64,000 bases of DNA, from NCBI GenBank assembly GCA_007125155.1, contig SLDR01000010.1, positions 24,490 to 88,489 of the forward strand, written 5' to 3'. The stretch comes from Candidatus Campbellbacteria bacterium. GTDB taxonomy: Bacteria > Patescibacteriota > Minisyncoccia > Phycocordibacterales > CSBR16-193. Both the position numbers and the translations under genes were made by a program. The notes beneath the pieces were generated by a model. That model had not been told where the DNA came from. It made no database searches and saw only the letters and a program-made list of their open reading frames with translations. Below are positions 2,955 to 52,365 of the stretch, one piece after another. Numbering within the stretch: the stretch's first letter is position 1; the number at the start of each line of letters is the position of its first letter.

Positions 2955-2966
2955 CTGTTCATTTTT

Positions 2967-16655: not shown

Positions 16656-17816
16656 TCACTCCGTTCCTTTGTCGGAATTGATCTTGCGGTTAACAAAGAG
16701 ACCGCAAATGATCATCTCCATATCGCTTTCATCAAAATCATACTTAACGATCTCGGAGAGATACTCATGCAATGGCCGGATCTCGGTTTCGGGATGCTTC
16801 TTTATCAGAACATTCTTGAACGCCATTTCGATCCTTTGGTTTGAGTTGAAATAGACGATATCGGGGATCCAGTTCATATTCTTTTCGTACTCCAGCTCCC
16901 AGAATTGCATAATTGAAGATATGGTGTTTTCCAATTTTTTCAAGAAACCCTTTTCGCATTCTTCCGAGAAGTACATTGAAACGTAAGAAAGAGCTACGCA
17001 TCGGGGAACTTCGAACTTCTTCTCAATTTCTTCCAAAATTTTCGAATACCCGTGGTGTATATGTAGGTGTTCTTTCACGACATCATTCTCGATAAGAGTG
17101 ATAAGTGTTTCCGAGGTATTCACGTTCACATATTTTTTCAGACCTTTCTCATTAGATCTTCTTATGAGATCCGTAACGGCGTCGTTTTTTGGAAAAAAAT
17201 AGACCGGAGTCGATCCGACCGTTTTTTTTATCTGAGATCGGAGTGACTCAAGAAGCTCTGCCGGCGCGACGGAATTGAAGAGAGAAATATCCAACTCCTT
17301 TGCTTCGATCCCGTACGGTTTTTTGGCCGGGTACCCATTCAAACAGACGGATGTCACTTCCTTTTTTATGAATTCTATGGAATCTTTTTTTTGAAGAATC
17401 AGATCGGGAGCGTCATCGATCTTCGCTATTTCCTTGCTTAAAATATCATCGATCAGCTCCTTAGTTATTCTAAAAGATGTATTTTCTTTGTGTGTGGTTT
17501 TGCTAAGGTAGCTGTATTGATAGGGAGAATCTATCATGAATACACATCTCTCAATGTAAAACTCAGTCAAACCATCACCTTTTGTCAGACCCCTGTGCGC
17601 TCTATCGGCAAGATCATTGATCACGGCAGTAACGGCCTGCTCAAGCTCCGTTATTGAGCTGAAAAGACCTTCGAGAGTGGTTCTGGTGTTGTTTATGTGA
17701 ATGAATATACCCTCTTCCCCGCTTTGGCCGGGGTCTATTAGCGCGCCCTGAACTCCGCTCTCGGACACATCAATGATCGCAACTGCAGGTAATTTTGAAC
17801 TCGCAAATAAATTCAT
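16656..17816 (-). CDS. Actin-fold (ASKHA) protein, FtsA/PilM-like
   Basis: N-terminal VAIIDVSESGVQGALID resembles the phosphate-1 motif of actin-like ATPases, and a later GYSKILEEIEKKFEVPRCVALSYV region resembles the FtsA/PilM IIa region. Start set at ATG 17816, one nt after the alaS stop; the track ORF would extend 80 nt into alaS. Confidence 0.4.
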   Translation of the reverse strand: MNLFASSKLPAVAIIDVSESGVQGALIDPGQSGEEGIFIHINNTRTTLEGLFSSITELEQAVTAVINDLADRAHRGLTKGDGLTEFYIERCVFMIDSPYQYSYLSKTTHKENTSFRITKELIDDILSKEIAKIDDAPDLILQKKDSIEFIKKEVTSVCLNGYPAKKPYGIEAKELDISLFNSVAPAELLESLRSQIKKTVGSTPVYFFPKNDAVTDLIRRSNEKGLKKYVNVNTSETLITLIENDVVKEHLHIHHGYSKILEEIEKKFEVPRCVALSYVSMYFSEECEKGFLKKLENTISSIMQFWELEYEKNMNWIPDIVYFNSNQRIEMAFKNVLIKKHPETEIRPLHEYLSEIVKYDFDESDMEMIICGLFVNRKINSDKGTE

Positions 17817-17817
17817 T

Positions 17818-19605
17818 TTATTCCAAAACGGCTTTGACTCTCCTAACCCCTTCAGAGACCGATTCTTCTTTAATGATCTTGAATTTTCCCAGGGCACCGG
17901 TATTTTCTACGTGAGGACCGCCACACAGCTCCTTGCTGAATACGCCTGTCTCACCGTCGCCTATGTAGTAAACCTTTACCTGATCGGAGTACCTGTCCCC
18001 GAAGACACCATCGATCCCTTTTTCTCGCGCTTCCTGGAGGGTCATCTCTTCGCATATGACGGGTAATTTTCGGTCTATGGCATCGTTGACGATATCCTCG
18101 ATCTTATTTTTTTCTTCCTCCGTGAGCTTGCTGTGGTGAGAGAAATCGAATCTGGCTCTTTCGGCTGTTATGTTACTGCCCTTCTGTTTGACGTGTTCTC
18201 CCAGGACCTTCTTCAGTGCGGCATTTAAGAGATGTGTCGAGGTGTGATATTTTGTCTCTTCTTCCCCGGATCCCGCCAGTCCTCCTTTGAACTTTCCCGC
18301 CGTCCCCTTTCGGGAAATTTTTTGATGTTCTTCATATGCCTTTCGAAACCCCTCGACATCCACCCTGATGCCTTTCTCGTTAGCCAGATCAACGGTCATG
18401 TCTATGGGAAAGCCATAAGTGGAGAAAAGCAGAAAGGCATCTTCACCGCTTATGTCGTATTCTGACATTTTTTCAAATCTCTTCAGGCCCTCTTTTAGAG
18501 CATCTTTAAATTTATGGATCTCTATCTCGATCTTATTCGTAAGGTCAGTCGATGACGATCCGATCTCAGGATAAGCGTCTTTGTACTTTTCGATCACTTC
18601 CCTTGCGATCTCTATTATCAGTTCGAGGGCTTCTTTTTCATCGGATGATGATGCGGCCATTCTGAAGGCTCGTCTCAACAGGCGCCTTACTATGTACCCT
18701 CTGTCAGTATTGGAAGGAGTGACCCCGTCCGATATGATGAAAACCGTCGCCCGGATATGATCGCATATTATATTTTTTGCCCTTCGGTCCATCTGTGGGC
18801 GGAGATCTTCTATCTTTTTCATCATCGGTTCGAACAGATCGGTCTCGAAAACCGATGATCTGTTTTGCAGTACCGCCGTGACCCTCTCCAGGCCGGCCCC
18901 CGTATCAACACTTTTGTTCTTTAAGGGCCCTTTAATTTTTCCTTTTTCTTTCTCGTATTGCATGAATACGTCATTCCATATCTCTATGACATCACCATTC
19001 TCGTCCGCTTTCTGGAACTCTTCCGGTGTCAAATCTCCGAGTCCCGCGGGAGTTACGTCGTAGAACATCTCGGAATCAGGTCCGCAAGGGCCGTTATCAC
19101 CCGGACTCCACCAATTTTCAGAGGCCGGTCTGAAATATATTCTTGATTCTTTGATCCCGATATTTTTCCATATTTCCGCGGCCTCTTCATCTCTGGGAGC
19201 ATTAATGTCACCTTCGAATACCGTAACATAGAGGCGCTCAGGGTCCATGCCGAAACCTTCGCTTTCGGAAGTAAGGAGTTCGTAACTCCATTTTAGAGCT
19301 TCTTCTTTAAAATAGTCTCCCAATGACCAATTGCCGAGCATCTCGAAGAAGGTCAAGTGAGTATTATCACCCACCTCTTCTATATCGTTCGTTCTGACGC
19401 ACTTTTGAACATTGGCCAATCGCTTACCCCGGGGGTGTTTCTCTCCAAGGAGATAAGGTACTAAAGGTTGCATACCTGCGGTTGTGAACAGAACCGAAGG
19501 ATCATTTTCGGGTATCAATGACGATGAGGGAATTATCGCATGACCTCTTTTTTCAAAAAAACTTAAGAATCTTTTGCGTATTTCGGATGAATGCATAAAT
19601 GTCAT
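17818..19605 (-). CDS. alaS: Alanine--tRNA ligase, short form lacking the C-Ala domain
   Basis: AlaRS catalytic-core motifs (FTTAGMQP, WSLGDYFK) and an editing-domain HxxxH (HTSTHLLNAAL). At 595 aa it is truncated relative to canonical AlaRS of about 870 aa. Confidence 0.9.
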   Translation of the reverse strand: MTFMHSSEIRKRFLSFFEKRGHAIIPSSSLIPENDPSVLFTTAGMQPLVPYLLGEKHPRGKRLANVQKCVRTNDIEEVGDNTHLTFFEMLGNWSLGDYFKEEALKWSYELLTSESEGFGMDPERLYVTVFEGDINAPRDEEAAEIWKNIGIKESRIYFRPASENWWSPGDNGPCGPDSEMFYDVTPAGLGDLTPEEFQKADENGDVIEIWNDVFMQYEKEKGKIKGPLKNKSVDTGAGLERVTAVLQNRSSVFETDLFEPMMKKIEDLRPQMDRRAKNIICDHIRATVFIISDGVTPSNTDRGYIVRRLLRRAFRMAASSSDEKEALELIIEIAREVIEKYKDAYPEIGSSSTDLTNKIEIEIHKFKDALKEGLKRFEKMSEYDISGEDAFLLFSTYGFPIDMTVDLANEKGIRVDVEGFRKAYEEHQKISRKGTAGKFKGGLAGSGEEETKYHTSTHLLNAALKKVLGEHVKQKGSNITAERARFDFSHHSKLTEEEKNKIEDIVNDAIDRKLPVICEEMTLQEAREKGIDGVFGDRYSDQVKVYYIGDGETGVFSKELCGGPHVENTGALGKFKIIKEESVSEGVRRVKAVLE

Positions 19606-23273: not shown

Positions 23274-24275
23274 CTACCCCCTATATTTCAAGGGGACTTT
23301 ACCATCCTTGGACAAACTATTCACGACATCATCATAAGTATCCCTTAACGAAGAGTTGTACTTATCCGTGGCGTATCTGGGGATATCTATCGTCTTTCTT
23401 CTTTCCTCAAGTAGAGAATTTATGATATCCAGTATCTCTTTCTGCTTGATCACCACTTCGTCTGTATCTTTGAATTTGCATTCCCCTTCCTTTGCGCATG
23501 CAATGAAGGTCTCGAGCTGTAATTTTATCTGCTCCATGAAGAATATTTGGTAGTGATGTTCTGAGGCCTTAATGTTCGAGCCGGACTTTTCCTTCATTTG
23601 TTCGTACTTAATTTCGATCAGTTCGTCCAGTCCGCTATTTTGCACGCCTACTATAACCGAAGGTATCATCTCTATAGGTCCTTTGTACTCGTTATCAAAC
23701 GGGTCGGGTGATTGGAAGTACTTTATTTCCCCAAGTTTACCCCTAAGGACACCGCTTATGATATTCTTCATTTTTTTGTCGCAATTCTCACTCGGATAGT
23801 CGCCGCTTTTGGCATCAATGCAGAGCTTGGGCGTGTCGTTGCCCTCCCTACCGTCAAGTTTGAACTCCATTATGATATCGGTGCCTCTGAAGACGTCGTC
23901 AAACTCGGAAGCCTTGATGGTCATGGCTTCATCTCCGAACCAAGAGTTCTCCTCGAGGCTGTCCAAAAGAATAAGTTCCAAAAGCTCCGATCTTTTTGTT
24001 CTGGGAACCCAATCGGGATCTCTTTTTTTCTTTTCAATTTTCTCATGATCTTTTTCGATCGCTTCTTTACCGAATATTTCCTCAAAATCATTCATCTTTA
24101 TCATCTGTTCTTCGTATCTCTTGCGGAGCTCCATTAAAATATGATCCTCCATCTCTTCGACGCCGGGGTTGCCATCACTCGGTGTTACAGTTAATTGTTT
24201 TTCGATCTTTGATCTCATTTTGATTCTTTTATTTATTAAGAGGTGATCAATTTCAATGATAATATCATAAGGCAA
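23274..24275 (-). CDS. Hypothetical protein (333 aa, acidic, coiled-coil rich)
   Basis: ORF with typical codon usage and no recognisable domain. The start is uncertain: M1 overlaps the upstream gene by 11 nt, and M20 at 24218 is an alternative. Confidence 0.5.
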   Translation of the reverse strand: MPYDIIIEIDHLLINKRIKMRSKIEKQLTVTPSDGNPGVEEMEDHILMELRKRYEEQMIKMNDFEEIFGKEAIEKDHEKIEKKKRDPDWVPRTKRSELLELILLDSLEENSWFGDEAMTIKASEFDDVFRGTDIIMEFKLDGREGNDTPKLCIDAKSGDYPSENCDKKMKNIISGVLRGKLGEIKYFQSPDPFDNEYKGPIEMIPSVIVGVQNSGLDELIEIKYEQMKEKSGSNIKASEHHYQIFFMEQIKLQLETFIACAKEGECKFKDTDEVVIKQKEILDIINSLLEERRKTIDIPRYATDKYNSSLRDTYDDVVNSLSKDGKVPLKYRG

Positions 24276-27935: not shown

Positions 27936-29300
27936 TCAGACAGGGAGATCTGAGGGAGCGTCACCTTTCCTTGAAGTCACTCTCTGCAGTGTCGGGGTTG
28001 CCGATGATTCACCCGGGATGTGGAATATTGTCGCTAATTCCTCGGTACTCATTACTCCGTGTGGAGATTTGTAGGGAGGATAGAAATAGGATCTCCATCT
28101 GTAAGCGTTATACATCTGCTTCGAGACCCTCTTTTTCCTGAACCCTTTGTAATCCTGCCATGGGTAGTCGAAAACGGTATGTCCTCTTGTGGGTGCGAAT
28201 CCATTCATGTGTTCATAGTTGTATTGTTTGAATACGCTGACCAAACCGCTTATTGTGATAGGGTCAAAAGAGTCTTTCTCGGATATATACAAGGATCTTA
28301 TACCTACATCAAATGCTCTTTTGCTAAGGTTTCTTTCTATGGCTTTTATCGTCTCCGCCTGCCAAGTGGTCAGATTTATGGATGGAGCCCCCTCGGGAAC
28401 TTCGTCTATTCTGAGCGAAAGCTTGGGGGGCGCATTGTCCTTAATGATCTTTTGTATTATTTTTTGTCCTTCGTCCTTCCAATCAACCTTTCCGAAAAAA
28501 GAACCGGGTTTTTTCTTTTCCTTTTTATGTGCTCTTACAAGTATCTGTATCCACACAGCCTCTCCTCTGTTCAATGATGCCAAAAACTCAAGAACGGAGT
28601 TCATCGGATCGACGATGTATTCTTCTTTTATCTCTCTGTCCAATCCGTAGTCGATATATGTTCTAATCGGATAAGGGTCAGGCTTGGTGAGCTTGTATTC
28701 GCATGCCCAAAAATTGTATTTTTCCAGATCGAAAGGAATGTAATCGGTATAGTCTTCGACCTCGTAGACCTCGGCATCGGGGTATTGGGAATATATTGCC
28801 GCCTCTATGTGCCTCCTCCAGTTCTTCCGCATCCATATAAAGAAGTGGATCCTCCCTTCAAGAGATACCATTTCCAGTGAGAACCACGGACGTGTCTTCC
28901 CCTTTATCCAACGATCGATGAAAGTTCCTTCTCCCCCTGTCTGATGAAATGCTTCCAACAGAAGTTCCATGGCTATAAGGGGCTTTTTGGTGTCTTTTGG
29001 AACCTTTACCTCCATCAGTATCGTCTCTTGATCCATGAAAAAAGAGATCCGCTTATATGCCATGTAGGTATTTATGGCCGCCATGGTAAAGATCACGGGC
29101 AAAAAGATCAGAAGGACACCCAGCAACACTCTGAGAAAGATCTCTATGTTCCCGCCAGTTAGCCCGATGAGCAACAGAAGGCCGATGATCGAAAAAAAAG
29201 GCATCAAACCGACCATTACGTATATGGCGATTAGAACCTTTCTGTCCTGATCTTTCTTCTGTTCCTCTTCCGACGGAGGTGAGATCGATGTTTCCGGCAT
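27936..29300 (-). CDS. Hypothetical membrane protein (454 aa; 2 N-terminal TM helices plus a large soluble domain)
   Basis: Two hydrophobic helices followed by a soluble domain with a C-terminal MSTEELATIFHIPG motif. No Walker motifs. Family not recognised. Confidence 0.55.
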   Translation of the reverse strand: MPETSISPPSEEEQKKDQDRKVLIAIYVMVGLMPFFSIIGLLLLIGLTGGNIEIFLRVLLGVLLIFLPVIFTMAAINTYMAYKRISFFMDQETILMEVKVPKDTKKPLIAMELLLEAFHQTGGEGTFIDRWIKGKTRPWFSLEMVSLEGRIHFFIWMRKNWRRHIEAAIYSQYPDAEVYEVEDYTDYIPFDLEKYNFWACEYKLTKPDPYPIRTYIDYGLDREIKEEYIVDPMNSVLEFLASLNRGEAVWIQILVRAHKKEKKKPGSFFGKVDWKDEGQKIIQKIIKDNAPPKLSLRIDEVPEGAPSINLTTWQAETIKAIERNLSKRAFDVGIRSLYISEKDSFDPITISGLVSVFKQYNYEHMNGFAPTRGHTVFDYPWQDYKGFRKKRVSKQMYNAYRWRSYFYPPYKSPHGVMSTEELATIFHIPGESSATPTLQRVTSRKGDAPSDLPV

Positions 29301-30449: not shown

Positions 30450-33353
30450 TCACAATACGATGTTGATTATTCGGTTGGGAACATAAATGATTTTATTAAT
30501 TCTCTTATTTCCGCACCATTTTGAAAATACGGATGTCCTTTCCAGCTCCTTTATCGCTTCCTCCTTCGATGAATCCCTTGCTATCTCCATCTCGCCTCTT
30601 TTTTTGCCATTGATCTGTATCGCCACCTTTGTGCTCTCGTCCAAGGTCTTTTCGGGGTCATATGCGGGCCACTTGGATCTATGGATCGACGTCCTTTGAC
30701 CGAGGCCTTCCCAAAGCTCATCGGCAATATGCGGAGCGAAAGGAGCAAGCAAGGTAAGAATATCCCTCAGGTCTTTTTTTGATATTTTTTCTTTCGAATC
30801 CATGTGTTTTACAAGTATCATCAAAGAGGACACGGCCGTGTTGAACGAGAAGGACGATATGTCGTCCCCCACCTTCTTGATGGTCTTGTGTATGATGGAT
30901 TCCGTATCCCTATCCCTTATTTGGGAGGGGGATACCTTACCGGGAAGACGCCAGACCCGCTCCAGGAATCTGCGTGTCCCCATCAACCCGTTGATGCTCC
31001 ATGACACCTCTCCTTCAAAGGGCCCCATGAACATTTCATATAGACGCATAGAGTCGGCCCCGACATCGTTCACGACCTTATCCGGACTTATGACGTTGCC
31101 CCACCTCTTGCTCATTTTTCTTCCATCCGGACCGAGGATCAATCCCTGGTTCCTCAGTGCCTTAAAGGGCTCCTTCGTGGTTACGACCCCTTCTTTGTAC
31201 AGGAATTTATGCCAGAATCGAGAGTATATGAGGTGGCGTGTGGCGTGTTCTATCCCACCGACGTATAGATCCACCGGCATCCAATATTTTTCCTTATTGG
31301 GATGAACGGGGTATTTTTTGTTCTTGGGATCGATGTAACGAAGATAGTACCAGCATGATCCCGCCCATTGAGGCATGGTATTGGTTTCTCGTTTTGCGTT
31401 CTCATTACATTTGGGACATTTAGTTTTCACCCACGAGGTTATGTTGGCAAGGGGCGATTCCCCCGTTCCCGTGGGTTCATATGACCTTACTTCCGGAAGC
31501 CTGATCGGCAGTTCGTCTTCCGGGACCGGTACCACTCCGCATTTTTTGCAATGTATAAGAGGAATCGGTTCACCCCAGTATCTCTGTCTTGAAAAAACCC
31601 AGTCTTTAAGTTTGTACTTGGTCCTTATTTTTCCCCCGACTTTGTTATTGATGGACCTCTTGGCCACTTCGTTATCCATGCCCGAGAACTCGCCTGAATT
31701 ATCCAAGACCCCGGAGCCGGTGTATGCCATGTTGTCCCCTTTTTTCAGCCATTCAGTCCATATGTCCAGCTCGGCACATGTCATCAAATCAACCGTTTCA
31801 TCGAGTTTACCCCACATAATTTCATGTTTTTCATTTTCCTCCGGTGCGATCTTTTTACGCTTGTGGCTCTTTAGTTCAAGGTGGACCGCAGTAGTTAATG
31901 CTTTTCTGTTCTCATTCTTATGAGCCGCATAGTAGTGTGCCTCCACATAAAAAGGGGTGATTTTTTTGAATCCAAGATCAAAGTATCCTGTCTCCTCTTC
32001 CACTTCTCGCTTTGCCGCTTCGATAATGTCTTCATTTTCTCCCACTCCTCCGACAACAAATGTTATCCATTTGTGTTTCTTCCATCTCAAGAAAAGTGTC
32101 TTTCCCGAATCGGGGTCAGTGACTATGACATGGACCGTCTTTCTTTCGATCGTTCTTTTCTTCTCTTTGGGCGGATTACGTTCATCGATCCTTTTCGGAA
32201 AGACCACATATCGTATCGGGAGGTCCTTTTCTTTTGCGAAAGCATGATCTCGATCATCATGAGCGGGTACCGCCATGATGGCTCCCGTGCCGTAGTGCAT
32301 CATCACGTAATCGGCAACCCAAACCGGTATACTCTCGCCGTTGGCGGGATTCTTGGCCAATATGCCTTTGACCTCCACCCCTGTTTTCTTTTTTTCCTCG
32401 GTCGTTCTTTGCAGTTCGGTCTTCTTTGTCGCTTTTTTGATGTAGTTCCTGACTGCGGTCTTATTATCTATCGATGACCACATTTCTCCTATTATGGGAT
32501 GCTCGGGGGCGACCACCAGGTATGTTGCACCGAAGAGAGTATCGGGTCTTGTGGTAAATACCGATATGGAATACTCGGTATTATTTTCCGGAGCCGTTTT
32601 AGATCTTTCTCCGACCGGAGTCAGAAGAAAATCGATCTCGGATCCCTTACTTTTTCCTATCCAGTTCCTTTGTGAATCCTTTACGGATTCGGGCCAGTCG
32701 GAAAGACCATCGAGGTCATTCAATAACTCTTCGGCGTAGTCGGTTATCCTCAATACCCATTGGCGAAAAGGTCTCTGTTCGACCTCTGAACCACACCTTT
32801 CACAAAGACCTCCCTCAAGGTCCTCGTTTGCCAGACCCGTCTTGCAAGAAGGACACCAGTTTATGGGTTCATGTGATTCATATGCCAGACCGGCTTTGAA
32901 TATCCGTAAAAATATCCACTGCGTCCATTTATAATACTCGGGATCGGTCGTATTTATCTCTCTATCCCAGTCATAGGAGAGCCCCAGCTTCGATAGCTGT
33001 TTTCTGTAACGCCCAACATTCTTTTTAACCGCGGTTTTGGGATGTATCTTATTTTTAATGGCGAAGTTCTCGGCTGGCAGACCAAATGCGTCCCAACCCA
33101 TGGGGTGGAGTACATTGAACCCCTTCATCCTAAGATATCTGGAGTAGATGTCGGTTGCAATATAACCGCGAGGGTGGCCGACATGTATCCCTTCTCCCGA
33201 TGGATAAGGAAACATATCCAGAATATATTTTTTCTCTTTTCCTCCGGTGTGTTTTACGCGATAGAGTTTGTCTTTTTCCCAGCGTTTCTGCCATTTCCTT
33301 TCGATTCTGTTGTGGTCGTACTTTTTCATGGATCTCTGCTTTCGCTCTGTCAT
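30450..33353 (-). CDS. leuS: Leucine--tRNA ligase carrying an internal Nudix-hydrolase-like domain insertion
   Basis: HIGH-type HVGHPRGY, editing-region TTRPDT, and KMSKRWGN. Residues about 385-540 insert RWKKHKWITFVVGGVGENEDIIEAAKREVEEETGY, an exact match to the Nudix box Gx5Ex7REUxEExGU, at the position of the leucyl-specific domain. Confidence 0.9.
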   Translation of the reverse strand: MTERKQRSMKKYDHNRIERKWQKRWEKDKLYRVKHTGGKEKKYILDMFPYPSGEGIHVGHPRGYIATDIYSRYLRMKGFNVLHPMGWDAFGLPAENFAIKNKIHPKTAVKKNVGRYRKQLSKLGLSYDWDREINTTDPEYYKWTQWIFLRIFKAGLAYESHEPINWCPSCKTGLANEDLEGGLCERCGSEVEQRPFRQWVLRITDYAEELLNDLDGLSDWPESVKDSQRNWIGKSKGSEIDFLLTPVGERSKTAPENNTEYSISVFTTRPDTLFGATYLVVAPEHPIIGEMWSSIDNKTAVRNYIKKATKKTELQRTTEEKKKTGVEVKGILAKNPANGESIPVWVADYVMMHYGTGAIMAVPAHDDRDHAFAKEKDLPIRYVVFPKRIDERNPPKEKKRTIERKTVHVIVTDPDSGKTLFLRWKKHKWITFVVGGVGENEDIIEAAKREVEEETGYFDLGFKKITPFYVEAHYYAAHKNENRKALTTAVHLELKSHKRKKIAPEENEKHEIMWGKLDETVDLMTCAELDIWTEWLKKGDNMAYTGSGVLDNSGEFSGMDNEVAKRSINNKVGGKIRTKYKLKDWVFSRQRYWGEPIPLIHCKKCGVVPVPEDELPIRLPEVRSYEPTGTGESPLANITSWVKTKCPKCNENAKRETNTMPQWAGSCWYYLRYIDPKNKKYPVHPNKEKYWMPVDLYVGGIEHATRHLIYSRFWHKFLYKEGVVTTKEPFKALRNQGLILGPDGRKMSKRWGNVISPDKVVNDVGADSMRLYEMFMGPFEGEVSWSINGLMGTRRFLERVWRLPGKVSPSQIRDRDTESIIHKTIKKVGDDISSFSFNTAVSSLMILVKHMDSKEKISKKDLRDILTLLAPFAPHIADELWEGLGQRTSIHRSKWPAYDPEKTLDESTKVAIQINGKKRGEMEIARDSSKEEAIKELERTSVFSKWCGNKRINKIIYVPNRIINIVL

Positions 33354-43982: not shown

Positions 43983-45341
43983 TCAGCTTATATTTTTATT
44001 CTTTTTTGTCGGATAACCGCAATCTTTTATCTCGGGACACTTCCCGTAGGTCATACACTGAGGCTCCGTATAGTCCGCAAGATCCGGGTGTGCGATCTTG
44101 ATCTTCGTTGCCATATCCCGGGCTATCCTTCGTATCTCCCACTGAGCTTCGGGACACGCCCTTTTTCCTATACTGTGGATCGCATTCCAACCGTTTATGT
44201 GTATCCAGTCGTAGATCTTCAAGGAATGAGGTACGACTCCGACCGCATCGCCCTTGGGTACTCCATCTTTTGTCAGCTCATCGTAAAGCTTAATTAGAAT
44301 GGAGTGAAGCCTTGTGTATTCGGTCAAGAATTCCGATCTCACGATCGACGGAGGCACGACCATTCTTTCTTCGGGGTCGTCCACGGCGTCTTCCAGGGCA
44401 TTGTAAATGCTCTCTACGCTCTGGTTCCAAGTTCTCTGTCTTGTTGCTTGATGGAAACAGGTCAAGGACATCTCTGTCAAAAATTCGAAATGGATGTGCT
44501 TAAGGTTTGCCAGCTCGGCTTCGTCTCTTTGGACCACCGCCCTTTCGATCCCCCATCCGATATCCTCCTCGGCCGGTATCATGGATCCCAGCATAATGAC
44601 GGGAGTTTTATGTCTTTTAAAACTCTCTTTGAGTTTTCTCAACATCAGAACCATCGTTAAGTTGTACGATGAGAAAAGTTGCGAAGAGGGATACCAGCTT
44701 AAAGGCTCGTAGTTAAACCCGAGATCTTCGAATAAATATGGTGTTCTGTTTGAAGCCAGAGCTTTCATTTTCTTCACCACCTCCAAGGTTTCGGACGACA
44801 CTTCAGTGTTTTTCGACATCGAGATCAAGTCACATATCTCTCGGGCATTCCCGGTCGTGGTAATGTTGGTCTTGGTGTAAAGTGGAAGAAGAAAACGCGC
44901 ATCTTCAGCTGTTATACCGGCCTCACGGGTTTTGTTATAGAAATCGAAAGTGTGTCGGAACACCCTTTCGGTCTCCGTTCCCAGTCTTGATCTTTTTATG
45001 GAATCGGGAATGTGAAAACCTCTATCGGCGCTTGCTCTTCTTAGGGACTGCTGTAGATGTTCCAGGTATTCCGGTAAACATAAGAACAAAGTCGTTGCTC
45101 GTGACAGATCTTCTATGCTGAAAGTGAAATGGACCTGGTCGCCGACCGAACCGTGCCCTCTTCCGAAACTGTTCTCTATCACGACCCTTTCCTTTTTCAA
45201 TCGTTCTTCCTTTGGCATCGCGAGAAGCTGCTTCATTATTACTTCCGTAGAGTCCTTTTTAAAGCAACTTAAAGCGGCGGCCGCCACCAGTGTTTGAGGA
45301 TCTTCCGGGCATCCTATCAGTTTAACTTTGAAATCATACAT
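43983..45341 (-). CDS. Tandem ThyX-like (Thy1 domain) protein with divergent active-site motifs
   Basis: The N-terminal half has VKLIGCPEDPQTLVAAAALSCFK and GHGSVGDQVHFTFSIEDLSRATT, matching the ThyX fold. The canonical RHRx7S motif is replaced by PEY...QQSLRR in half 1 and by RQRTWNQSVES in half 2. At 452 aa it is about twice ThyX length. Confidence 0.55.
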   Translation of the reverse strand: MYDFKVKLIGCPEDPQTLVAAAALSCFKKDSTEVIMKQLLAMPKEERLKKERVVIENSFGRGHGSVGDQVHFTFSIEDLSRATTLFLCLPEYLEHLQQSLRRASADRGFHIPDSIKRSRLGTETERVFRHTFDFYNKTREAGITAEDARFLLPLYTKTNITTTGNAREICDLISMSKNTEVSSETLEVVKKMKALASNRTPYLFEDLGFNYEPLSWYPSSQLFSSYNLTMVLMLRKLKESFKRHKTPVIMLGSMIPAEEDIGWGIERAVVQRDEAELANLKHIHFEFLTEMSLTCFHQATRQRTWNQSVESIYNALEDAVDDPEERMVVPPSIVRSEFLTEYTRLHSILIKLYDELTKDGVPKGDAVGVVPHSLKIYDWIHINGWNAIHSIGKRACPEAQWEIRRIARDMATKIKIAHPDLADYTEPQCMTYGKCPEIKDCGYPTKKNKNIS

Positions 45342-47649: not shown

Positions 47650-48828
47650 GTGATATCTATGGAAATGGAAGCTTTCAGCCTCTTGGTTCTCTCTCTGATT
47701 GCCGGGGCGTATATTTTATTTATCCGCCTTTTGGGAGTTATTCCATCAACCTCCTTTTTCAACGTTGAGATCTTCAAAACCAAGCCCGATATCAGAGAGG
47801 GTTTCTTTGATCTTGCGAAGGGATTGGCGATAATTGCTGTTGTGGTGATACACGCTGTTCTTTTATTGAATTACTTTTCCGATGATCTTTCAGTTGACTA
47901 TTTGGCATGGAGTGAACATATCAACCGATTGGTCAGGTTTGCGATACCCGTCTTCTTCATCTGCTCCGGTGCCTTGCTATTCTTGGAGGACACGGGCAAA
48001 ACCTCTCTTAAGCGCTTCTATTTTCCCAAGGTAAAACGTCTTGTTATTCCCTATGTGATCTTTTCAGTATTCGCAACGTTTGCCTTTTCGCAAGAACCGG
48101 GAGGTTTTGCCGACCGGACCATACAGGCCCTCTCCGATCTTTTTACAGGGGGAGCCCTGGCGCCTTATTGGTTCATACCCGTTCTTTTTCAGCTCTATCT
48201 TTTGTACCCCATACTTTGGTATATTCTGGTAGTTAAGAAGATGGATTCCGCCAAATTTCTCGCCGGTTCATTCGTTATCTCTCTTTTAAGTTATTTCCTT
48301 TTCACATCATATTGGTTCAACCTCCACGGTTACATGGGAGATCTGGTATTTTTCGGCCCTTATCTGTTTTTTTTCGCTTTCGGAATGGTGTTTAAACCTC
48401 TATTTTTCTCGGGAGCTGAACGGGTCCGTGACTGGATGTCTGAGACCGGATTTCTCTATTTCGCATCCGTTATCTTGTTCGTATATTTTTTGATCGGCGC
48501 CATCGACCCCCTTACCCATTACTACAATGTCAGGTTGATATACGGACCCACCATGATCTTGATCATTCTCTACATATATCCGCTACTTAAAAACGGGAAG
48601 ATAGGCACCCTCATAGAGAGAGTCGGAGCGCAAAGTCTGTATATCTACCTTCTGCATTTTATACTTCTTTTGGCAATGTCCCCTTTTGTCGAGGCGATAC
48701 TGATCGAAGGAGTCGACCCGTTTATCACACTGATCCTTGTTATCGTCATTAACCTGTCAATGACCTGCGGTGCAATATATCTTGCGAGAAAGATGATAGA
48801 GGCGGCCGGGATCAAAACCGCCAAATAA
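47650..48828 (+). CDS. Acyltransferase family 3 (OafA/YrhL-like O-acyltransferase)
   Basis: 10-11 TM helices with conserved His/Arg positioned as in the acyltransferase 3 family. Confidence 0.75.
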   Translation: MISMEMEAFSLLVLSLIAGAYILFIRLLGVIPSTSFFNVEIFKTKPDIREGFFDLAKGLAIIAVVVIHAVLLLNYFSDDLSVDYLAWSEHINRLVRFAIPVFFICSGALLFLEDTGKTSLKRFYFPKVKRLVIPYVIFSVFATFAFSQEPGGFADRTIQALSDLFTGGALAPYWFIPVLFQLYLLYPILWYILVVKKMDSAKFLAGSFVISLLSYFLFTSYWFNLHGYMGDLVFFGPYLFFFAFGMVFKPLFFSGAERVRDWMSETGFLYFASVILFVYFLIGAIDPLTHYYNVRLIYGPTMILIILYIYPLLKNGKIGTLIERVGAQSLYIYLLHFILLLAMSPFVEAILIEGVDPFITLILVIVINLSMTCGAIYLARKMIEAAGIKTAK

Positions 48829-48994
48829 AAATCAGGCGCCTTAGCGTAACGCTATTTTGCCTTGCAAAAAAAGGATATTTTAAGACCGATCATCGGTATC
48901 TTTTTATAATATTGTGCAGTCCGTGAATTCGTGTCGCTGTGCATTTGTGGATAATAAAAAAACTTTTAACGTGTGTTAGTATTGGTTCATAAGA

Positions 48995-49140
48995 TATTTG
49001 CGGTCCGTACAGTGAAGAGGGGTGAAAATCCCCCGCTAACGCGTAACGGTCAGAGCCCGACCCTGTATGGAATGTTCCGGAAGGAGCCGCGCAAGGTTCG
49101 CGTCAAACCGAGGGGATCATTTTGCTTGGCGCTTGTAGCC
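48995..49140 (+). promoter_or_regulatory. Candidate cobalamin (B12) riboswitch upstream of nrdDG
   Basis: GGUGAAAAUCC at 49021..49031, followed by GCUAACGCGUAACGGUCA, matches the conserved core GGUGaaAAUCCnnnGCuGaCgCGCaaCuGUAA. A downstream CCGGAAGG matches the GGGAAGG element. It lies in the 340-nt leader of nrdD. Confidence 0.5.
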
Positions 49141-49168
49141 AAAATTTTTATTAATAAACATATAACTT

Positions 49169-51256
49169 ATGTACTCGAAAATAAAAAAAAGGAACGGAGG
49201 CACAGTGAGCTTCGATGATGAAAAGATAGTCCGGGCGATAGCAAAAGCCGGCGAAGCAACCGGTGAATTCGATCTGAAAGAGGCGCGTAAGTTAACAAAA
49301 AAGGTTCTTGAGGCTTCAAAAAACAGCATCAAGAATAAGATCCCCAAAGTTGAAGAGATCCAAGACGTTGTTGAAGATGTTCTTCTTAATTCAAAGTACA
49401 AAAAGACGGCCAAGGCATACATCCTATACAGAGACCAACATAGACTGCTGAGGGATATGACCAACTCCGTCAACAACGGTTTGGTCGACAATTATCTTGT
49501 AAGATCAGATTGGAAGGTCAAGGAGAACAGTAATATGGCCTACTCTCTCCAGGGTCTGAATAACTATATATCAAGTGAGGTAAGCAAGAATTATTGGTTA
49601 AGCAGGATATATCCTGAGAATGTAAGAGATGCACACAATGAAGGAGATTTTCATATCCATGATCTCAGTATTCTTTCCGTCTATTGTGTGGGATGGGACC
49701 TTTTAGCGCTTTTAATGAACGGTTTCACCGGAGTCGAAGGCAAAGTGTCCAGTAAACCGCCGAAACACTTCAGAGCCGCTTTGGGACAGGTGACCAATTT
49801 CTTCTATACACTTCAAGGCGAGGCGGCCGGAGCCCAGGCTTTCAGCAACTTCGACACATTGCTCGCCCCTTTCATAAGATACGATGAGTTAAACTACAAA
49901 GAGGTGAAACAGGCCCTTCAAGAGTTCATTTTCAATGTTAACATTCCGACACGAGTCGGATTTCAAACCCCGTTCACCAACGTGACGTTGGATCTTTCGG
50001 TTCCCGATTATTATGCCGAACAATCGGTCATTATCGGCGGTAAACCCAAAAGGGAAAAATACAAGGATTTTCAGGAAGAAATGAATATCTTCAATAAGGC
50101 CCTATTGGAGGTAATGTCCGAAGGAGACGCCAGCGGAAGGGTCTTCACATTCCCGATCCCGACATACAACATCACAAGCGACTTCGACTGGAATAGTGAT
50201 ATTAGTCGGCTACTTTGGAAAGTGACCGCCAAATACGGGCTTCCATATTTCTCGAATTTTATAAATTCAGATATGAAACCGGAGGATGCGCGATCCATGT
50301 GCTGCCGTTTGCGGATAGACAATAGAGAACTTGAAACGAGAGGTGGAGGTCTGTTCGGAGCCAATCCGCTTACAGGTTCGATCGGGGTCGTAACAATTAA
50401 TCTTCCACGACTGGGATATATCTCGAAGAACAAAGAAGAATTCTTTGATAATCTGAAGAACTTGATGTACTTGGCAAAGGACAGCTTGGAGATAAAAAGA
50501 AAGATCTTGGAAAGGTTCACAGAGAATGATCTTTATCCCTATACCAAATTCTATCTTAAAGGGATCAAAGACCAGTACGGCAGTTATTGGAAGAACCACT
50601 TCTCCACTATCGGTATAGCGGGAATGAATGAGGCCGTCCAAAACCTTTACGGGAAGAACATCGCCACTCCGGAAGGTCAGGAGTTCTCAAAAGAGGTTCT
50701 TGAACTAATGAGAGAGGAAATGGTGAAATTCCGAGATGAGACCGGAAACAACTACAATTTGGAAGCAACACCGGCGGAAGGTACCCTTTTCAGACTTGCG
50801 ATCCTCGACCAGAAAAAACATCGAGATCCCATCTTTGCCAACGGAAGAGGAAAGAATGTGAAAAGCCCTTTCTATACAAATTCCACCCATCTACCGGTCA
50901 ATTATACGGATGACGTATTCGAAATGCTTGATCTTCAGGATGATCTTCAAACGAAGTACACCGGAGGAACGGTGGCTCATTTGTTCTTCGGCGAAAAGAT
51001 AGAAGATGGGAATTCAGTCAAAAATTTGGTCAAAAAGATCTGCGAAAATTACAGAATGCCATACTTCACGATAAGCCCTACATTCAGCGTATGTCCCGAC
51101 CATGGATACATTCCCGGAGAGGTTCCCGTCTGTGACAAATGTAAAGGCAAATGCGAGGTCTATTCGAGGATCGTGGGTTACTTGCGACCTGTAAATCAAT
51201 GGAATGACGGAAAGAGATCCGAGTTCGTAATTCGAAAGACATATAAAAATCAATAA
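49169..51256 (+). CDS. nrdD: Anaerobic ribonucleoside-triphosphate reductase (class III)
   Basis: N-terminal ATP-cone (KIKKRNGGTVSFDDEKI) and a C-terminal Zn ribbon CPDHGY...CDKCKGKCEVYSRIVGYL with the glycyl-radical RxxGY motif. Confidence 0.95.
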   Translation: MYSKIKKRNGGTVSFDDEKIVRAIAKAGEATGEFDLKEARKLTKKVLEASKNSIKNKIPKVEEIQDVVEDVLLNSKYKKTAKAYILYRDQHRLLRDMTNSVNNGLVDNYLVRSDWKVKENSNMAYSLQGLNNYISSEVSKNYWLSRIYPENVRDAHNEGDFHIHDLSILSVYCVGWDLLALLMNGFTGVEGKVSSKPPKHFRAALGQVTNFFYTLQGEAAGAQAFSNFDTLLAPFIRYDELNYKEVKQALQEFIFNVNIPTRVGFQTPFTNVTLDLSVPDYYAEQSVIIGGKPKREKYKDFQEEMNIFNKALLEVMSEGDASGRVFTFPIPTYNITSDFDWNSDISRLLWKVTAKYGLPYFSNFINSDMKPEDARSMCCRLRIDNRELETRGGGLFGANPLTGSIGVVTINLPRLGYISKNKEEFFDNLKNLMYLAKDSLEIKRKILERFTENDLYPYTKFYLKGIKDQYGSYWKNHFSTIGIAGMNEAVQNLYGKNIATPEGQEFSKEVLELMREEMVKFRDETGNNYNLEATPAEGTLFRLAILDQKKHRDPIFANGRGKNVKSPFYTNSTHLPVNYTDDVFEMLDLQDDLQTKYTGGTVAHLFFGEKIEDGNSVKNLVKKICENYRMPYFTISPTFSVCPDHGYIPGEVPVCDKCKGKCEVYSRIVGYLRPVNQWNDGKRSEFVIRKTYKNQ

Positions 51257-51259
51257 ATA

Positions 51260-51952
51260 TTGATGATAATAGGCGGATTCCAAAGGTTCTCGTTAATTGA
51301 TTACCCCGGGAAAACTTGTGCCGTGATATTTACCCGAGGATGTGGATTTCGTTGCAAATATTGCCACAATCCGGAACTTGTAATACCGGAAAAATATTCA
51401 GCAAAGATCGGACTCGAATCGATAATGACTTTTCTGGAAGGCCGTCGCAATAAGCTTGATGCGGTGACCATCTCCGGGGGAGAGCCGACCGACCAAATAG
51501 ATATCGAACCGGTGATCGGTGATCTTAAAAGAATGGAGTTTTTGATCAAACTCGACACCAACGGTACGCGTCCCGAAGTGCTGAAGAGTTTGATAGAGAT
51601 GGAAATGATCGATTACGTCGCAATGGATGTAAAGGGGCCTTTCGAAAAGTACGAGGACATAACCGGATGTTACGTGGATACGGAAAAGATAAAGGAAAGT
51701 ATCGATATCGTGCTGAATTCGGGTGTAGATCACGAATTCAGAACAACCGTGGCATCCGAGATCCTTAGTGAAGAAGACCTCCTGAAGATAGCCATGATGA
51801 TCACCGGAGCAAAACGTTATTATCTTCAGACATTCACATCTTCAAAGATGATATGTACAGAACCCTCCGCACTCTCACCTCTCCCGATTAAAGATATGCA
51901 AAGTTGCGCCCGTAAAATCAGGGGGTATGTTAAGGATTGCCGGGTTAGATGA
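51260..51952 (+). CDS. nrdG: Anaerobic RNR-activating protein (radical SAM)
   Basis: CGFRCKYC radical-SAM cluster motif. Located immediately after nrdD. Confidence 0.9.
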   Translation: MMIIGGFQRFSLIDYPGKTCAVIFTRGCGFRCKYCHNPELVIPEKYSAKIGLESIMTFLEGRRNKLDAVTISGGEPTDQIDIEPVIGDLKRMEFLIKLDTNGTRPEVLKSLIEMEMIDYVAMDVKGPFEKYEDITGCYVDTEKIKESIDIVLNSGVDHEFRTTVASEILSEEDLLKIAMMITGAKRYYLQTFTSSKMICTEPSALSPLPIKDMQSCARKIRGYVKDCRVR

Positions 51953-51987: not shown

Positions 51988-52365
51988 CTATCTGTCAGAC
52001 CACAGACCATGTACGTTGCAATACTCTCTCGCAGTAACACTCTCACCTTTGATACTGAACTCGGCTTCCGGTGCATCGCCCGGTTTTAGGAACTTTCGGC
52101 AGTATTTTCCGTCCACTATGACCTCTATCCACTCTATGTAATGCTCCTCTGTCATGGGATGGGGGTCGGAGCCGACCTTTACCTTGACCCCATTCTCCGT
52201 CGTCTCTATGACCGGAACATGTTTTTCCAGTCCTTCATCTTTGGTCTTCTCTTCCTTCAATTCCATTGGTTGACCGCAACATACGAGTTCTCCGAAACCT
52301 GTATGCAGAAGCTCGACAATGTTGCCGCACACGTTACATTTATATATCTGTTTAAGTTTTGTCAT
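51988..52365 (-). CDS. dfx: Superoxide reductase (desulfoferrodoxin, 2Fe-SOR)
   Basis: N-terminal desulforedoxin CxxCGN...CCG and a neelaredoxin-like centre with [14 protein letters not shown] and YCNVHGLW ligands. Confidence 0.9.

What the first reader, a model, noticed from the sequence alone, without database searches (positions are those of the whole stretch)
48995..49168. Cobalamin-riboswitch-like leader controlling class III ribonucleotide reductase nrdDG
The 340-nt region upstream of nrdD contains GGUGAAAAUCC followed by GCUAACGCGUAACGGUCA, and later CCGGAAGG. These match the most conserved blocks of the B12 riboswitch core. B12 riboswitches upstream of B12-independent RNRs are an established regulatory logic where a B12-dependent class II RNR or B12 salvage exists. 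If real, this implies cobalamin sensing in this organism although no cobalamin genes are in the window.
Basis: partly seen in the sequence, partly recalled or inferred. Interest (0 to 1): 0.5.

Follow-up and report, generated by a model that had tools for sequence, protein, structure and literature searches.

The report
B12 riboswitch controlling anaerobic nrdDG
The leader of the anaerobic ribonucleotide reductase operon is a genuine vitamin-B12-sensing RNA switch of a known compact type that standard annotation thresholds miss, found in what appears to be an ultra-small (Patescibacteria) bacterium; the kind of element and its logic are already known.

Summary
Window 49000-49149 (+) is a compact cobalamin riboswitch with no P6 extension (Cbl-II-like), followed by an intrinsic terminator 20 nt before the nrdD ATG.

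- **Rfam score.** The window scores below Rfam's curated cut-off: AdoCbl-II 25.3 bits against 36.5, E=0.0012 in a 451-nt search. The alignable leaders in front of orthologous nrdD genes in Patescibacteria/Berkelbacteria MAGs pass the thresholds (37.4, 39.4, 45.4 and 51.9 bits).
- **Covariation.** Across 28 distinct copies, 95.8% of cells pair and 16 of 21 pairs change on both sides.
- **Kissing loop.** L5 (CGCG) is complementary to the loop of a downstream P13 hairpin (CGCGUCA). That hairpin is present in 26 of 28 copies, although it was not part of the search pattern.
- **Switch.** The L13/P13-3' segment can instead pair with the terminator 5' strand. This antiterminator is more stable (-12.9 vs -9.4 kcal/mol) and is conserved in relatives. 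It matches the mutationally validated P. megaterium metE mechanism.

'CCGGAAGG' is a variable insert hairpin, not a conserved B12 block. The expression platform is a terminator, not RBS sequestration.

This is a new member of a known kind. No B12 gene or nrdJ lies in the window.

The parts
48974..48982 (+). Probable extended -10 promoter element (TG-T-TAGTAT). It would place the transcription start about 8-10 nt before P1. This is an inference.
   Evidence: The block TGTTAGTAT / TGTTAGAAT / TGTTATTAT is conserved at the same position in the window and L001-L003 (alignment A1). The sigma-70 scan found no canonical two-hexamer promoter on this strand.
49000..49004 (+). P1 5' strand (GCGGU). It pairs with 49086-49090 (GCCGC).
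   Evidence: The long-range helix co-varies: GCGG/CCGC, GUGG/CCAC (L095), ACGG/CCGU (L003), UUCAG/CUGAA (L008).
49005..49012 (+). P3 5' strand (CCGUACAG). It pairs with 49063-49070 (CUGUAUGG).
   Evidence: 8 pairs. 6 of 8 show changes on both sides among the 8 close relatives, and 8 of 8 among the 28 distinct copies.
49013..49018 (+). J3/4 (UGAAGA), a conserved junction.
   Evidence: GTGAAG is invariant in alignment A2 and aligns to the GGGAAA junction of the Rfam model.
49019..49033 (+). P4 stem (GGGG/CCCC) with the conserved L4 loop UGAAAAU.
   Evidence: It matches the Rfam consensus GUGAAAUUC. The two outer pairs co-vary (GC, CG, UA, AU) and the inner GG/CC is invariant.
49037..49045 (+). 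P5 (UA/UA) with L5 = A-CGCG (CGCG at 49040-49043), the aptamer-side partner of the kissing loop.
   Evidence: The P5 pair at alignment A2 columns 42/48 (window A49038-U49044) switches between A-U and G-C (4 and 4 sequences). L5 CGCG is invariant.
49047..49062 (+). P6 short hairpin (CGG-UCAGAGC-CCG) plus J6/3 (ACC). There is no P6 extension (P7-P11).
   Evidence: It aligns to CgGUaAaAGUCcGAGc of RF01689. The stem is invariant in A2 and one of its three pairs varies in A3.
49063..49070 (+). P3 3' strand (CUGUAUGG).
49074..49087 (+). Variable insert hairpin GUUCC-GGAA-GGAGC.
   Evidence: Predicted hairpin of -6.3 kcal/mol. Relatives have a different hairpin at this position (L090 GACCC-CGAAA-GGGUC; L095 CCUC-CCAA-GAGG; L098 GUCC-UCA-GGAC), and L001/L002 have none.
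49086..49090 (+). P1 3' strand (GCCGC).
49095..49109 (+). P13 hairpin GGUU-CGCGUCA-AACC. L13 CGCG (49099-49102) is complementary to L5 CGCG (kissing loop).
   Evidence: A hairpin whose loop starts with CGCG lies downstream in 26 of 28 distinct copies, against 12.6% of shuffles, and L13 was not in the search pattern. All four P13 stem pairs co-vary.
49100..49106 (+). Antiterminator 5' strand (GCGUCAA). It pairs with 49126-49132 (UUGGCGC). This pairing excludes both P13 with its kissing loop and the terminator.
   Evidence: The MFE of the nascent transcript 49095-49137 is this helix (-10.6 kcal/mol). The best structure containing it scores -12.9, against -9.4 kcal/mol for P13 plus terminator. 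An equivalent 8-10 bp duplex is conserved in L001-3, L090, L095 and L100 and, by eye, in L008 with a different terminator sequence.
49126..49149 (+). Intrinsic terminator: UUGGC-GCUUGUA-GCCAA, then AA, then U5 (49145-49149).
   Evidence: Found by the terminator scan. It is conserved, with stem changes, in L001-L003, L090, L095, L100 and L008.
49169..51256 (+). nrdD, class III anaerobic ribonucleotide reductase with an N-terminal ATP-cone.
   Evidence: Pfam NRDD 4.4e-199 and ATP-cone 3.9e-22.
51260..51952 (+). nrdG, radical-SAM activase.
   Evidence: Pfam Radical_SAM and Fer4_12. It is conserved downstream of nrdD in relatives.

Best explanation
Window 49000-49149 is a corrinoid (vitamin B12 family) OFF-riboswitch that controls the nrdDG operon by premature transcription termination.

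The aptamer is compact and lacks the P6 extension. P1 encloses a junction of P3, P4, P5 and P6, plus a variable insert hairpin.

When a corrinoid is bound, loop L5 (CGCG, 49040-43) forms a kissing loop with L13 (CGCG, 49099-102). This stabilises the weak 4-bp P13 hairpin, leaves UUGGC (49126-30) free to form the terminator hairpin with GCCAA (49138-42), and RNA polymerase stops at the U-tract (49145-49), 20 nt before the nrdD start codon.

Without ligand, GCGUCAA (49100-06, made of L13 and the first 3' nucleotide of P13) pairs with UUGGCGC (49126-32). This 7-bp antiterminator allows read-through into nrdDG.

What is shown: the sequence and structure match, the covariation, the conserved complementarity, the computed energetics and the gene context. 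What is inferred: ligand binding, the direction of regulation, and the physiological rationale of switching off a B12-independent RNR when B12 is available for a B12-dependent enzyme.
For: 1. Rfam: the only riboswitch match is to the cobalamin clan (full-length RF01689, 25.3 bits, E=0.0012).
2. Alignable leaders in front of orthologous nrdD genes pass curated thresholds: L001 37.4, L002 39.4 and L008 45.4 bits (RF01689), L003 51.9 bits (RF01482), L015 58 bits (RF00174) (alignments).
3. Covariation, close set: in 8 close sequences 97% of cells pair and 10 of 25 pairs change on both sides, against 18-48% paired for slid partners.
4. Covariation, broad set: in 28 distinct sequences 95.8% pair, 16 of 21 pairs change on both sides, and no shuffle reaches the observed score. 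P1 also co-varies.
5. Kissing loop: a CGCG-loop hairpin lies downstream in 26 of 28 distinct copies, against 12.6% of shuffles, although L13 was not in the search pattern. The classical nrdD leader L015 has L5 CCCCC and a downstream hairpin loop GGGAG.
6. Expression platform: a terminator is present, the antiterminator is the MFE of the nascent RNA, and it scores -12.9 vs -9.4 kcal/mol. In L002, L003 and L100 the unconstrained MFE forms the antiterminator, while blocking L13 restores the terminator in all three and P13 as well in L002 and L003. The antiterminator duplex in six relatives is reached by only 0.6-5% of shuffles.
7. Gene context of the same core variant: distant nrdDG, class I nrdAB, an nrdB fused to an ATP-cone, and a CobQ/CbiA-like gene.
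8. The identical logic (kissing loop, then P13, then terminator; otherwise P13-3' pairs with terminator-5') was proven by compensatory mutagenesis for the P. megaterium metE riboswitch (PMC10327014). Cobalamin riboswitches on nrdAB and nrdDG alongside nrdJ are reported in P. acnes (PMC3848588).
Against: - The window copy itself is 11 bits below Rfam's gathering score and is not reported in a standard scan.
- The whole-leader fold is not unusually stable (z=-1.25).
- P6 and the kissing-loop bases do not vary within this subfamily, so they carry no covariation evidence. L008 has L5 UGCCG without an obvious compensating change in L13.
- The terminator stem is short (5 bp, -6.5 kcal/mol) and is separated from the U-tract by AA.
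- No B12-dependent enzyme, transporter or nrdJ is present in the 64-kb window, so the physiological logic is unverified for this organism.
- No binding or transcription experiment exists.
Confidence: 0.88

Rival explanations
1. Decaying relic: a former cobalamin riboswitch that has drifted below detection and no longer binds ligand. nrdDG would then be expressed constitutively or attenuated by the terminator alone.
For: The Rfam score is sub-threshold (25.3 vs 36.5 bits). Non-canonical positions are flagged in P1 and P5 of the Rfam alignment. No B12-related gene lies in the window.
Against: Every helix is intact in the window under the subfamily-specific structure, and the copy scores 110 bits with model R1, although it was one of the sequences that model was built from. 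The differences from the nearest relatives are compensatory: in P13 U-A replaces C-G, and P3 is 8 of 8 paired. L5, L13, the antiterminator and the terminator are all preserved. The flagged Rfam mismatches arise because this subfamily closes P1 around an insert hairpin, which RF01689 does not model.
Confidence: 0.05
2. Same fold, different effector: a cobalamin-like aptamer variant whose specificity has shifted to another ligand. It could be a specific non-cobalamin corrinoid such as cobinamide, or an unrelated metabolite tied to dNTP synthesis.
For: The subfamily is strongly associated with ribonucleotide reductase operons. It has a distinctive L5/L13 (CGCG rather than the UCCCG consensus cited in PMC10327014). 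The ligand form cannot be read from sequence.
Against: The core nucleotides that align to the Rfam cobalamin models are conserved. One copy precedes a CobQ/CbiA-like gene (L082). L5/L13 is a docking element rather than the ligand pocket (PMC10327014). RNR association is the classic B12 logic (PMC3848588).
Confidence: 0.04
3. Translational or ON-type control: ligand binding acts on translation initiation, or activates expression, rather than terminating transcription.
For: There is no obvious Shine-Dalgarno sequence before the ATG at 49169 and the leader there is A/U-rich. Activating corrinoid riboswitches exist, for example A. halodurans cobT (PMC10327014). Some other copies of the variant appear to be RBS-sequestering (L094: P13 lies next to GGAGG).
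Against: A terminator with a U-tract is conserved in the window and seven relatives. P13 and the terminator are compatible with each other, whereas the antiterminator excludes both. That is the repressing topology (PMC10327014). Nothing in the aptamer or P13 is complementary to the start-codon region.
Confidence: 0.03

Closest known systems
Rfam RF01689 AdoCbl-II (formerly AdoCbl-variant) and the Cbl-II structural class (env8HyCbl type), clan CL00101
   Same: The architecture is the same: P3-P4-P5-P6 around a junction, the conserved L4 GUGAAAnUC, a short P6 hairpin (CGG-7 nt-CCG) with no P7-P11 extension, and an L5-L13 kissing loop. The window gives a full-length alignment to the model, and the orthologues L001, L002 and L008 exceed the gathering score.
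   Different: The window copy scores 25.3 bits, below the 36.5 cut-off. L5/L13 is the self-complementary CGCG rather than the C-rich L5 / G-rich L13. P1 is a long-range helix that also encloses a variable insert hairpin. env8HyCbl works through an RBS hairpin (as cited in PMC10327014), whereas this element uses a terminator.
Rfam RF01482 AdoCbl riboswitch (the model includes the P13 hairpin)
   Same: The Berkelbacteria orthologue L003 passes this model (51.9 vs 50 bits), with the P13 hairpin aligned. Both have a compact aptamer followed by P13.
   Different: The window's own score against this model was hidden by clan competition. The outer P13 pairs of the Rfam model are not conserved here. 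Those bases instead form the P1 3' strand.
Priestia megaterium metE corrinoid riboswitch (mechanism dissected in PMC10327014)
   Same: The regulatory topology is the same. The kissing loop stabilises P13 and the terminator forms. Without ligand, the P13 3' side pairs with the terminator 5' side as an antiterminator that is more stable than P13.
   Different: That riboswitch has L5 UCCCG, whereas this one has ACGCG. Here the antiterminator also consumes three of the four kissing-loop bases of L13. The regulated gene differs (metE vs nrdDG). No experiments have been done on this element.
Cobalamin riboswitches on B12-independent RNR operons (nrdAB and nrdDG of Propionibacterium acnes, PMC3848588)
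   Same: A B12 riboswitch sits in the 5' UTR of nrdDG or nrdAB, with apparent premature termination. The logic is to repress B12-independent RNRs when B12 can serve NrdJ.
   Different: The host is an apparent Patescibacteria (CPR) MAG rather than an actinobacterium. Presence of nrdJ is unknown here.

Membership tests
Cobalamin riboswitch clan (Rfam CL00101), Cbl-II-type | Operational annotation criterion: a score at or above the curated Rfam gathering threshold for a clan member. | tested here: inconclusive
   The window copy scores 25.3 bits against 36.5 (RF01689), with E=0.0012 in a 451-nt search, and is not reported at gathering thresholds. Alignable leaders upstream of orthologous nrdD genes pass: L001 37.4, L002 39.4, L008 45.4, L003 51.9 (RF01482) and L015 58 bits (RF00174).
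Cobalamin riboswitch clan (Rfam CL00101), Cbl-II-type | Junction of helices P3, P4, P5 and P6 in the family's order, supported by compensatory changes. | tested here: met
   97% of cells pair and 10 of 25 pairs change on both sides in 8 sequences. In 28 distinct sequences 95.8% pair and 16 of 21 pairs change on both sides. Slid controls give 18-49%. P6 shows little or no variation, so it adds no covariation evidence.
Cobalamin riboswitch clan (Rfam CL00101), Cbl-II-type | Conserved core nucleotides: J3/4 GAAG, L4 GGUGAAAnUCC, and AACGGU...AG(U/C)CCGA (P6 and J6/3). | tested here: met
   The alignment to the RF01689 consensus shows these blocks. They are invariant or nearly invariant in A2.
Cobalamin riboswitch clan (Rfam CL00101), Cbl-II-type | L5-L13 kissing loop linking the aptamer to the expression platform. 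| tested here: met
   L5 CGCG (49040-43) and L13 CGCG (49099-102) are complementary. A CGCG-loop hairpin is present in 26 of 28 copies, against 12.6% of shuffles. There is no covariation within the subfamily. Between subfamilies, L015 has CCCCC and GGGAG. Physical docking cannot be tested here.
Cobalamin riboswitch clan (Rfam CL00101), Cbl-II-type | Absence of the P6 peripheral extension (P7-P11), which distinguishes class II from class I. | tested here: met
   P6 is a 3-bp stem with a 7-nt loop (49047-49059).
Cobalamin riboswitch clan (Rfam CL00101), Cbl-II-type | Direct binding of a corrinoid (AdoCbl, MeCbl or HyCbl). | not testable with these tools
   This requires in-line probing, ITC or a reporter assay.
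Cobalamin riboswitch clan (Rfam CL00101), Cbl-II-type | Association with B12-related genes. | tested here: met
   The same core variant lies upstream of nrdDG, nrdAB, an ATP-cone nrdB and a CobQ/CbiA-like gene. Several other copies precede unannotated secreted proteins.
Repressing transcriptional corrinoid riboswitch (P. megaterium metE type, PMC10327014) | A terminator compatible with P13, and an antiterminator formed by the P13 3' side with the terminator 5' side that is more stable than P13 alone. | tested here: met
   P13 alone is -2.0, the antiterminator helix alone is -7.5, the best structure with the antiterminator is -12.9 and the best with P13 plus terminator is -9.4 kcal/mol. This is conserved in relatives. 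These are computations only.
B12-dependent/independent RNR isozyme switching (as in P. acnes, PMC3848588) | The same genome encodes a B12-dependent class II RNR (nrdJ) and a route to obtain corrinoids. | not testable with these tools
   No nrdJ, btu or cob gene was found in the 64-kb window or in the 22-kb locus L111. The rest of assembly GCA_007120995.1 could not be searched.

The most novel reading that the evidence does not exclude
The host appears to be a Patescibacteria (CPR) bacterium. These organisms are generally thought to have reduced genomes without cofactor biosynthesis (my own knowledge, not tested here). The most novel reading is that this lineage has no B12-dependent RNR at all and uses host-derived corrinoid purely as a signal, for example of host contact or host physiology, to shut down its only RNR operon and hence dNTP synthesis, rather than for isozyme switching. 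A milder version is that a CPR lineage scavenges corrinoids and runs a B12-dependent NrdJ, with a CGCG-kissing-loop riboswitch subfamily on its class I or class III RNR operons that curated Rfam thresholds only narrowly catch or, in this window, miss.
Probability: 0.12. Interest if true: 0.6.

Novelty: new member of a known kind. Interest (0 to 1): 0.3.

Why it matters
- **Annotation.** A functional-looking cobalamin riboswitch is invisible at Rfam gathering thresholds in this window. Its closest orthologues (L001, L002) pass by only 1-3 bits. B12 regulons in divergent, small-genome lineages may therefore be under-annotated in the same way.
- **Biology.** It indicates that a Patescibacteria lineage senses corrinoids and ties RNR expression to them. 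That predicts corrinoid uptake and probably a B12-dependent RNR in organisms thought to depend on hosts for cofactors. The prediction can be tested by searching the complete MAGs.
- **Mechanism.** It adds an independent natural example of the switch design validated in P. megaterium (kissing loop, P13, antiterminator, terminator). Here the kissing loop is a palindromic CGCG and the antiterminator directly consumes the kissing-loop bases.
- **Limit.** None of this is a new principle.

Tried and rejected
- **Rfam at gathering thresholds on the whole window.** No hits. The other sub-threshold hits in the leader (snoR18, 30_292, fstAT, sRNA162, SNORA28, DicF; E=1.4-6.3) were dismissed as chance.
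- **Whole-leader MFE folding.** It is not informative (z=-1.25). It mis-pairs P13 and cannot see the kissing loop.
- **Model R1 alignment of P13.** It fails for copies with long inserts because it picks the insert hairpin. I replaced it with a model-free CGCG-hairpin search with shuffles.
- **First energetics script.** It locked onto the wrong CGCG in the window (the P1 3' strand), and my first hand coordinates for P13 were off by 2 nt. Both were corrected.
- **NrdR-box search as a rival regulator.** There is no site in the leader. The single 3-mismatch hit elsewhere is at chance level.
- **Canonical sigma-70 promoter scan.** No + strand hit. The promoter proposal rests only on a conserved extended -10-like block.
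- **L008 as a kissing-loop covariation test.** L5 is UGCCG with L13 CGCGCCA, so there is no clean compensation. Inconclusive.
- **L046 (Gastranaerophilales).** Only a weak core-like match about 250 nt upstream of nrdD, below Rfam thresholds. Not used.
- **L085 and L082.** The L13-to-terminator complementarity is not significant there (78% and 21% of shuffles reach it), so the specific antiterminator design is confined to the window's close group.
- **Literature on riboswitches in CPR/Patescibacteria.** Nothing on natural cobalamin riboswitches.

Full report
**1. The observation.**
GGTGAAAATCC is at 49021-49031, GCTAACGCGTAACGGTCA at 49035-49052 and CCGGAAGG at 49077-49084. They lie in a 340-nt intergenic region (48829-49168). 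Upstream is an acyltransferase-family gene (47650-48828, +). Downstream is an ORF starting at ATG 49169 that is NrdD (ATP-cone + NRDD, E=4e-199), followed by a radical-SAM activase, NrdG, at 51260-51952.

**2. Direct test against known RNA families.**
At Rfam's curated thresholds the 64-kb window has no hit at all. With permissive filters on 48800-49250, the best match is a full-length alignment (model positions 1-81) to RF01689 AdoCbl-II at 48997-49073. It scores 25.3 bits against a gathering score of 36.5, with E=0.0012. Two further hits to families of the same clan were suppressed. Everything else has E above 1 and no other riboswitch class appears. The window copy alone is therefore suggestive but sub-threshold.

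**3. Comparative evidence.**
- The closest NrdD relatives in a species-level genome collection are MAGs labelled Patescibacteria group (L001 and L002, 83% aa identity), Berkelbacteria (L003, 72%) and other CPR lineages.
- L001 and L002 also share the neighbouring aminotransferase (81%) and a Mur-ligase-like gene (60%) with the window. The window comes from NCBI assembly GCA_007120995.1, contig SKMP01000011.1.
- The leaders of L001-L003 align with the window over the aptamer, a second hairpin and a terminator.
- These orthologous leaders do pass Rfam's curated thresholds: L001 37.4 and L002 39.4 bits (RF01689), L008 45.4 bits (RF01689), L003 51.9 bits (RF01482, whose model includes P13). A Clostridia nrdD leader, L015, is a classical RF00174 cobalamin riboswitch at 58 bits.

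**4. More copies.**
A degenerate pattern of the core (P4/L4 through P6) returned 30 further copies from metagenome contigs. Downstream genes are:

| Loci | Downstream gene |
|---|---|
| L085, L089, L102, L108, L110 | distant nrdD-nrdG (29% identity) |
| L090, L095, L100 | RNR large subunit (ATP-cone + Ribonuc_red_lgN + lgC) |
| L083, L087, L096, L106 | RNR large subunit followed by nrdB, i.e. class I nrdAB operons |
| L098 | nrdB fused to an ATP-cone, followed by an nrdA-like gene |
| L082 | CobQ/CbiA-like gene |
| several others | unannotated secreted proteins |

Every RNR whose class could be assigned under this variant is B12-independent. The class of the L090/L095/L100 large subunits was not confirmed, because no nrdB was found next to L090.

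**5. Structure and covariation.**
With an explicit structure on the 8 closest sequences (A2), 97% of cells form standard pairs and 10 of 25 pairs change on both sides. Sliding the 3' partners by 1-3 columns gives only 18-48% paired.

A covariance model built from A2 (R1) found 38 matches in 83 sources. The window has exactly one copy. On the resulting alignment of 28 distinct sequences, 95.8% of cells pair and 16 of 21 pairs change on both sides. The covariation score is 0.458, against 0.132 for shuffles and at most 0.125 for slid partners. That alignment is fitted to the model, so it leans towards the structure. A2 is a plain MAFFT alignment and gives the same picture.

A long-range P1 (49000-04 with 49086-90) also co-varies: GCGG/CCGC, GUGG/CCAC, ACGG/CCGU and UUCAG/CUGAA. 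P6 varies little or not at all and the kissing-loop bases never vary, so they say nothing either way.

The window's anatomy, with coordinates verified:

| Element | Coordinates | Sequence |
|---|---|---|
| P1 | 49000-04 / 49086-90 | GCGGU / GCCGC |
| P3 | 49005-12 / 49063-70 | CCGUACAG / CUGUAUGG |
| J3/4 | 49013-18 | UGAAGA |
| P4-L4 | 49019-33 | GGGG-UGAAAAU-CCCC |
| P5-L5 | 49037-45 | L5 CGCG at 49040-43 |
| P6 | 49047-59 | 3 bp, 7-nt loop, no extension |
| J6/3 | 49060-62 | ACC |
| Insert hairpin | 49074-87 | GUUCC-GGAA-GGAGC |
| P13 | 49095-109 | GGUU-CGCGUCA-AACC |

Relatives carry unrelated hairpins at this position, and L001 and L002 have none. It is not a conserved B12 block.

**6. 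Kissing loop.**
L5 is CGCG in all copies, but that was imposed by the search pattern. L13 was not in the pattern. Even so, 26 of 28 distinct copies have a downstream stem-loop whose loop begins with CGCG (consensus CGCGUCA), against 12.6% of shuffled controls. The two exceptions have near-variants. CGCG is self-complementary, so L5 and L13 can form four Watson-Crick pairs. The classical nrdD leader L015 has L5 CCCCC and a downstream hairpin loop GGGAG, which is the family's usual pairing. The published L5 consensus is UCCCG (cited in PMC10327014).

**7. Expression platform.**
- **Terminator.** UUGGC-GCUUGUA-GCCAA followed by AAUUUUU (49126-49149) ends 20 nt before the ATG. It is conserved, with stem changes, in L001-L003, L090, L095, L100 and L008.
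- **Antiterminator.** GCGUCAA (49100-06: three L13 kissing bases, the rest of the loop and the first P13 3' base) is complementary to UUGGCGC (49126-32, the terminator 5' strand).
- **Energetics.** This 7-bp helix is the MFE of the nascent RNA 49095-49137 (-10.6 kcal/mol). Over 49091-49152, the best structure containing it scores -12.9 kcal/mol, against -9.4 for the best structure containing P13 plus terminator. P13 alone is only -2.0.
- **Relatives.** In L002, L003 and L100 the unconstrained MFE forms the equivalent antiterminator. Forcing L13 to stay unpaired restores the terminator in all three, and P13 as well in L002 and L003. The L13/P13-3' to terminator-5' duplex is 8-10 bp in L001-3, L090, L095 and L100, and only 0.6-5% of shuffles reach it. 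L008 keeps the complementarity (CGCCAG with CUGGUG) although its terminator sequence differs (by eye).
- **Limit.** The more distant L085 and L082 do not share this particular design.

**8. Mechanism.**
The inferred mechanism is a repressing transcriptional switch.
- With corrinoid bound, L5-L13 docking holds L13 and stabilises the weak P13. The terminator forms and nrdDG is not transcribed.
- Without ligand, the more stable antiterminator forms and the operon is read through.

This is the topology demonstrated by disrupting and compensatory mutations for the P. megaterium metE corrinoid riboswitch (PMC10327014). What is shown here is the sequence and structure match, the covariation, the conserved complementarities and the computed energies. 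Ligand binding, the direction of control and the identity of the corrinoid form are inferred.

**9. Physiological logic.**
Cobalamin riboswitches on nrdAB and nrdDG, together with a B12-dependent nrdJ, are reported in P. acnes (PMC3848588). The logic is therefore established.

In this window I found no nrdJ, no corrinoid transporter and no cob gene among about 55 ORFs scanned with Pfam, and no RNR-large-subunit homologue by tblastn. The leader has no NrdR box.

**10. Novelty and score.**
The element belongs to a known class and follows a known regulatory logic and a known switching mechanism. Three things are new:
- This copy is missed by curated thresholds.
- Its host appears to be a Patescibacteria bacterium. 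I found no literature on natural cobalamin riboswitches in that group.
- It belongs to a widespread subfamily with a palindromic CGCG kissing loop.

I rate it a new member of a known kind, with interest about 0.3.

Noticed in passing
L095:3257-3371 (-) and L095:1882-1995 (-): One metagenome contig carries two copies of the riboswitch in tandem (100.7 and 117.4 bits with model R1). The upstream copy precedes a 291-aa SAM-methyltransferase-like ORF (2251-3126, -) and the downstream copy precedes the RNR large subunit. A methyltransferase under B12 control is unexplained.
   Followed up: partly
window 30450-33353 (-): The leucyl-tRNA synthetase (967 aa) appears to carry a NUDIX domain (aa 404-523, E=3.9e-10) immediately after the editing domain. 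This would be an unusual fusion or insertion.
   Followed up: no
window 43983-45341 (-): The ThyX (Thy1) protein is 452 aa with two matched Thy1 stretches, about twice the usual length, which suggests a tandem-duplicated flavin-dependent thymidylate synthase. It lies 4 kb from nrdDG.
   Followed up: no
L098:3600-4874 (-): An RNR small subunit (NrdB) with an N-terminal ATP-cone sits directly under the same riboswitch variant. Its ATP-cone is 54% identical to that of the window's NrdD.
   Followed up: partly
window 48974-48982 (+): The extended -10-like block TGTTAGTAT is conserved as TGTTAGAAT / TGTTATTAT in L001-L003, about 18 nt upstream of P1. It is a likely promoter, although the two-hexamer scan found none on this strand.
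   Followed up: partly
window 48842-48854 and 48885-48897 (+): Two terminator-like hairpins with T-runs follow the acyltransferase gene, ahead of the nrdDG promoter region.
   Followed up: no
L088, L091, L094, L107 (downstream ORFs): The same riboswitch core precedes secreted or PEP-CTERM-type proteins with no Pfam assignment. They could be corrinoid-binding or uptake proteins.
   Followed up: no
L084:820-946 (+): A second, weak cobalamin-like match (21.5 bits with R1; L5 UGCCG as in L008) lies on the same contig as a strong copy at 6348-6453 (-).
   Followed up: no
window 15153-16535, 16656-17897, 23274-24275, 27936-29300 (all -): Four large ORFs (333-460 aa) have no Pfam match at E<=1e-5. 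Such unannotated ORFs are commonly seen in CPR genomes (my own knowledge, not tested here).
   Followed up: no
window 51988-52365 (-): A desulfoferrodoxin (superoxide reductase) gene lies convergent with nrdG, next to the oxygen-sensitive class III RNR. The adjacency is not shared with L001-L003.
   Followed up: partly
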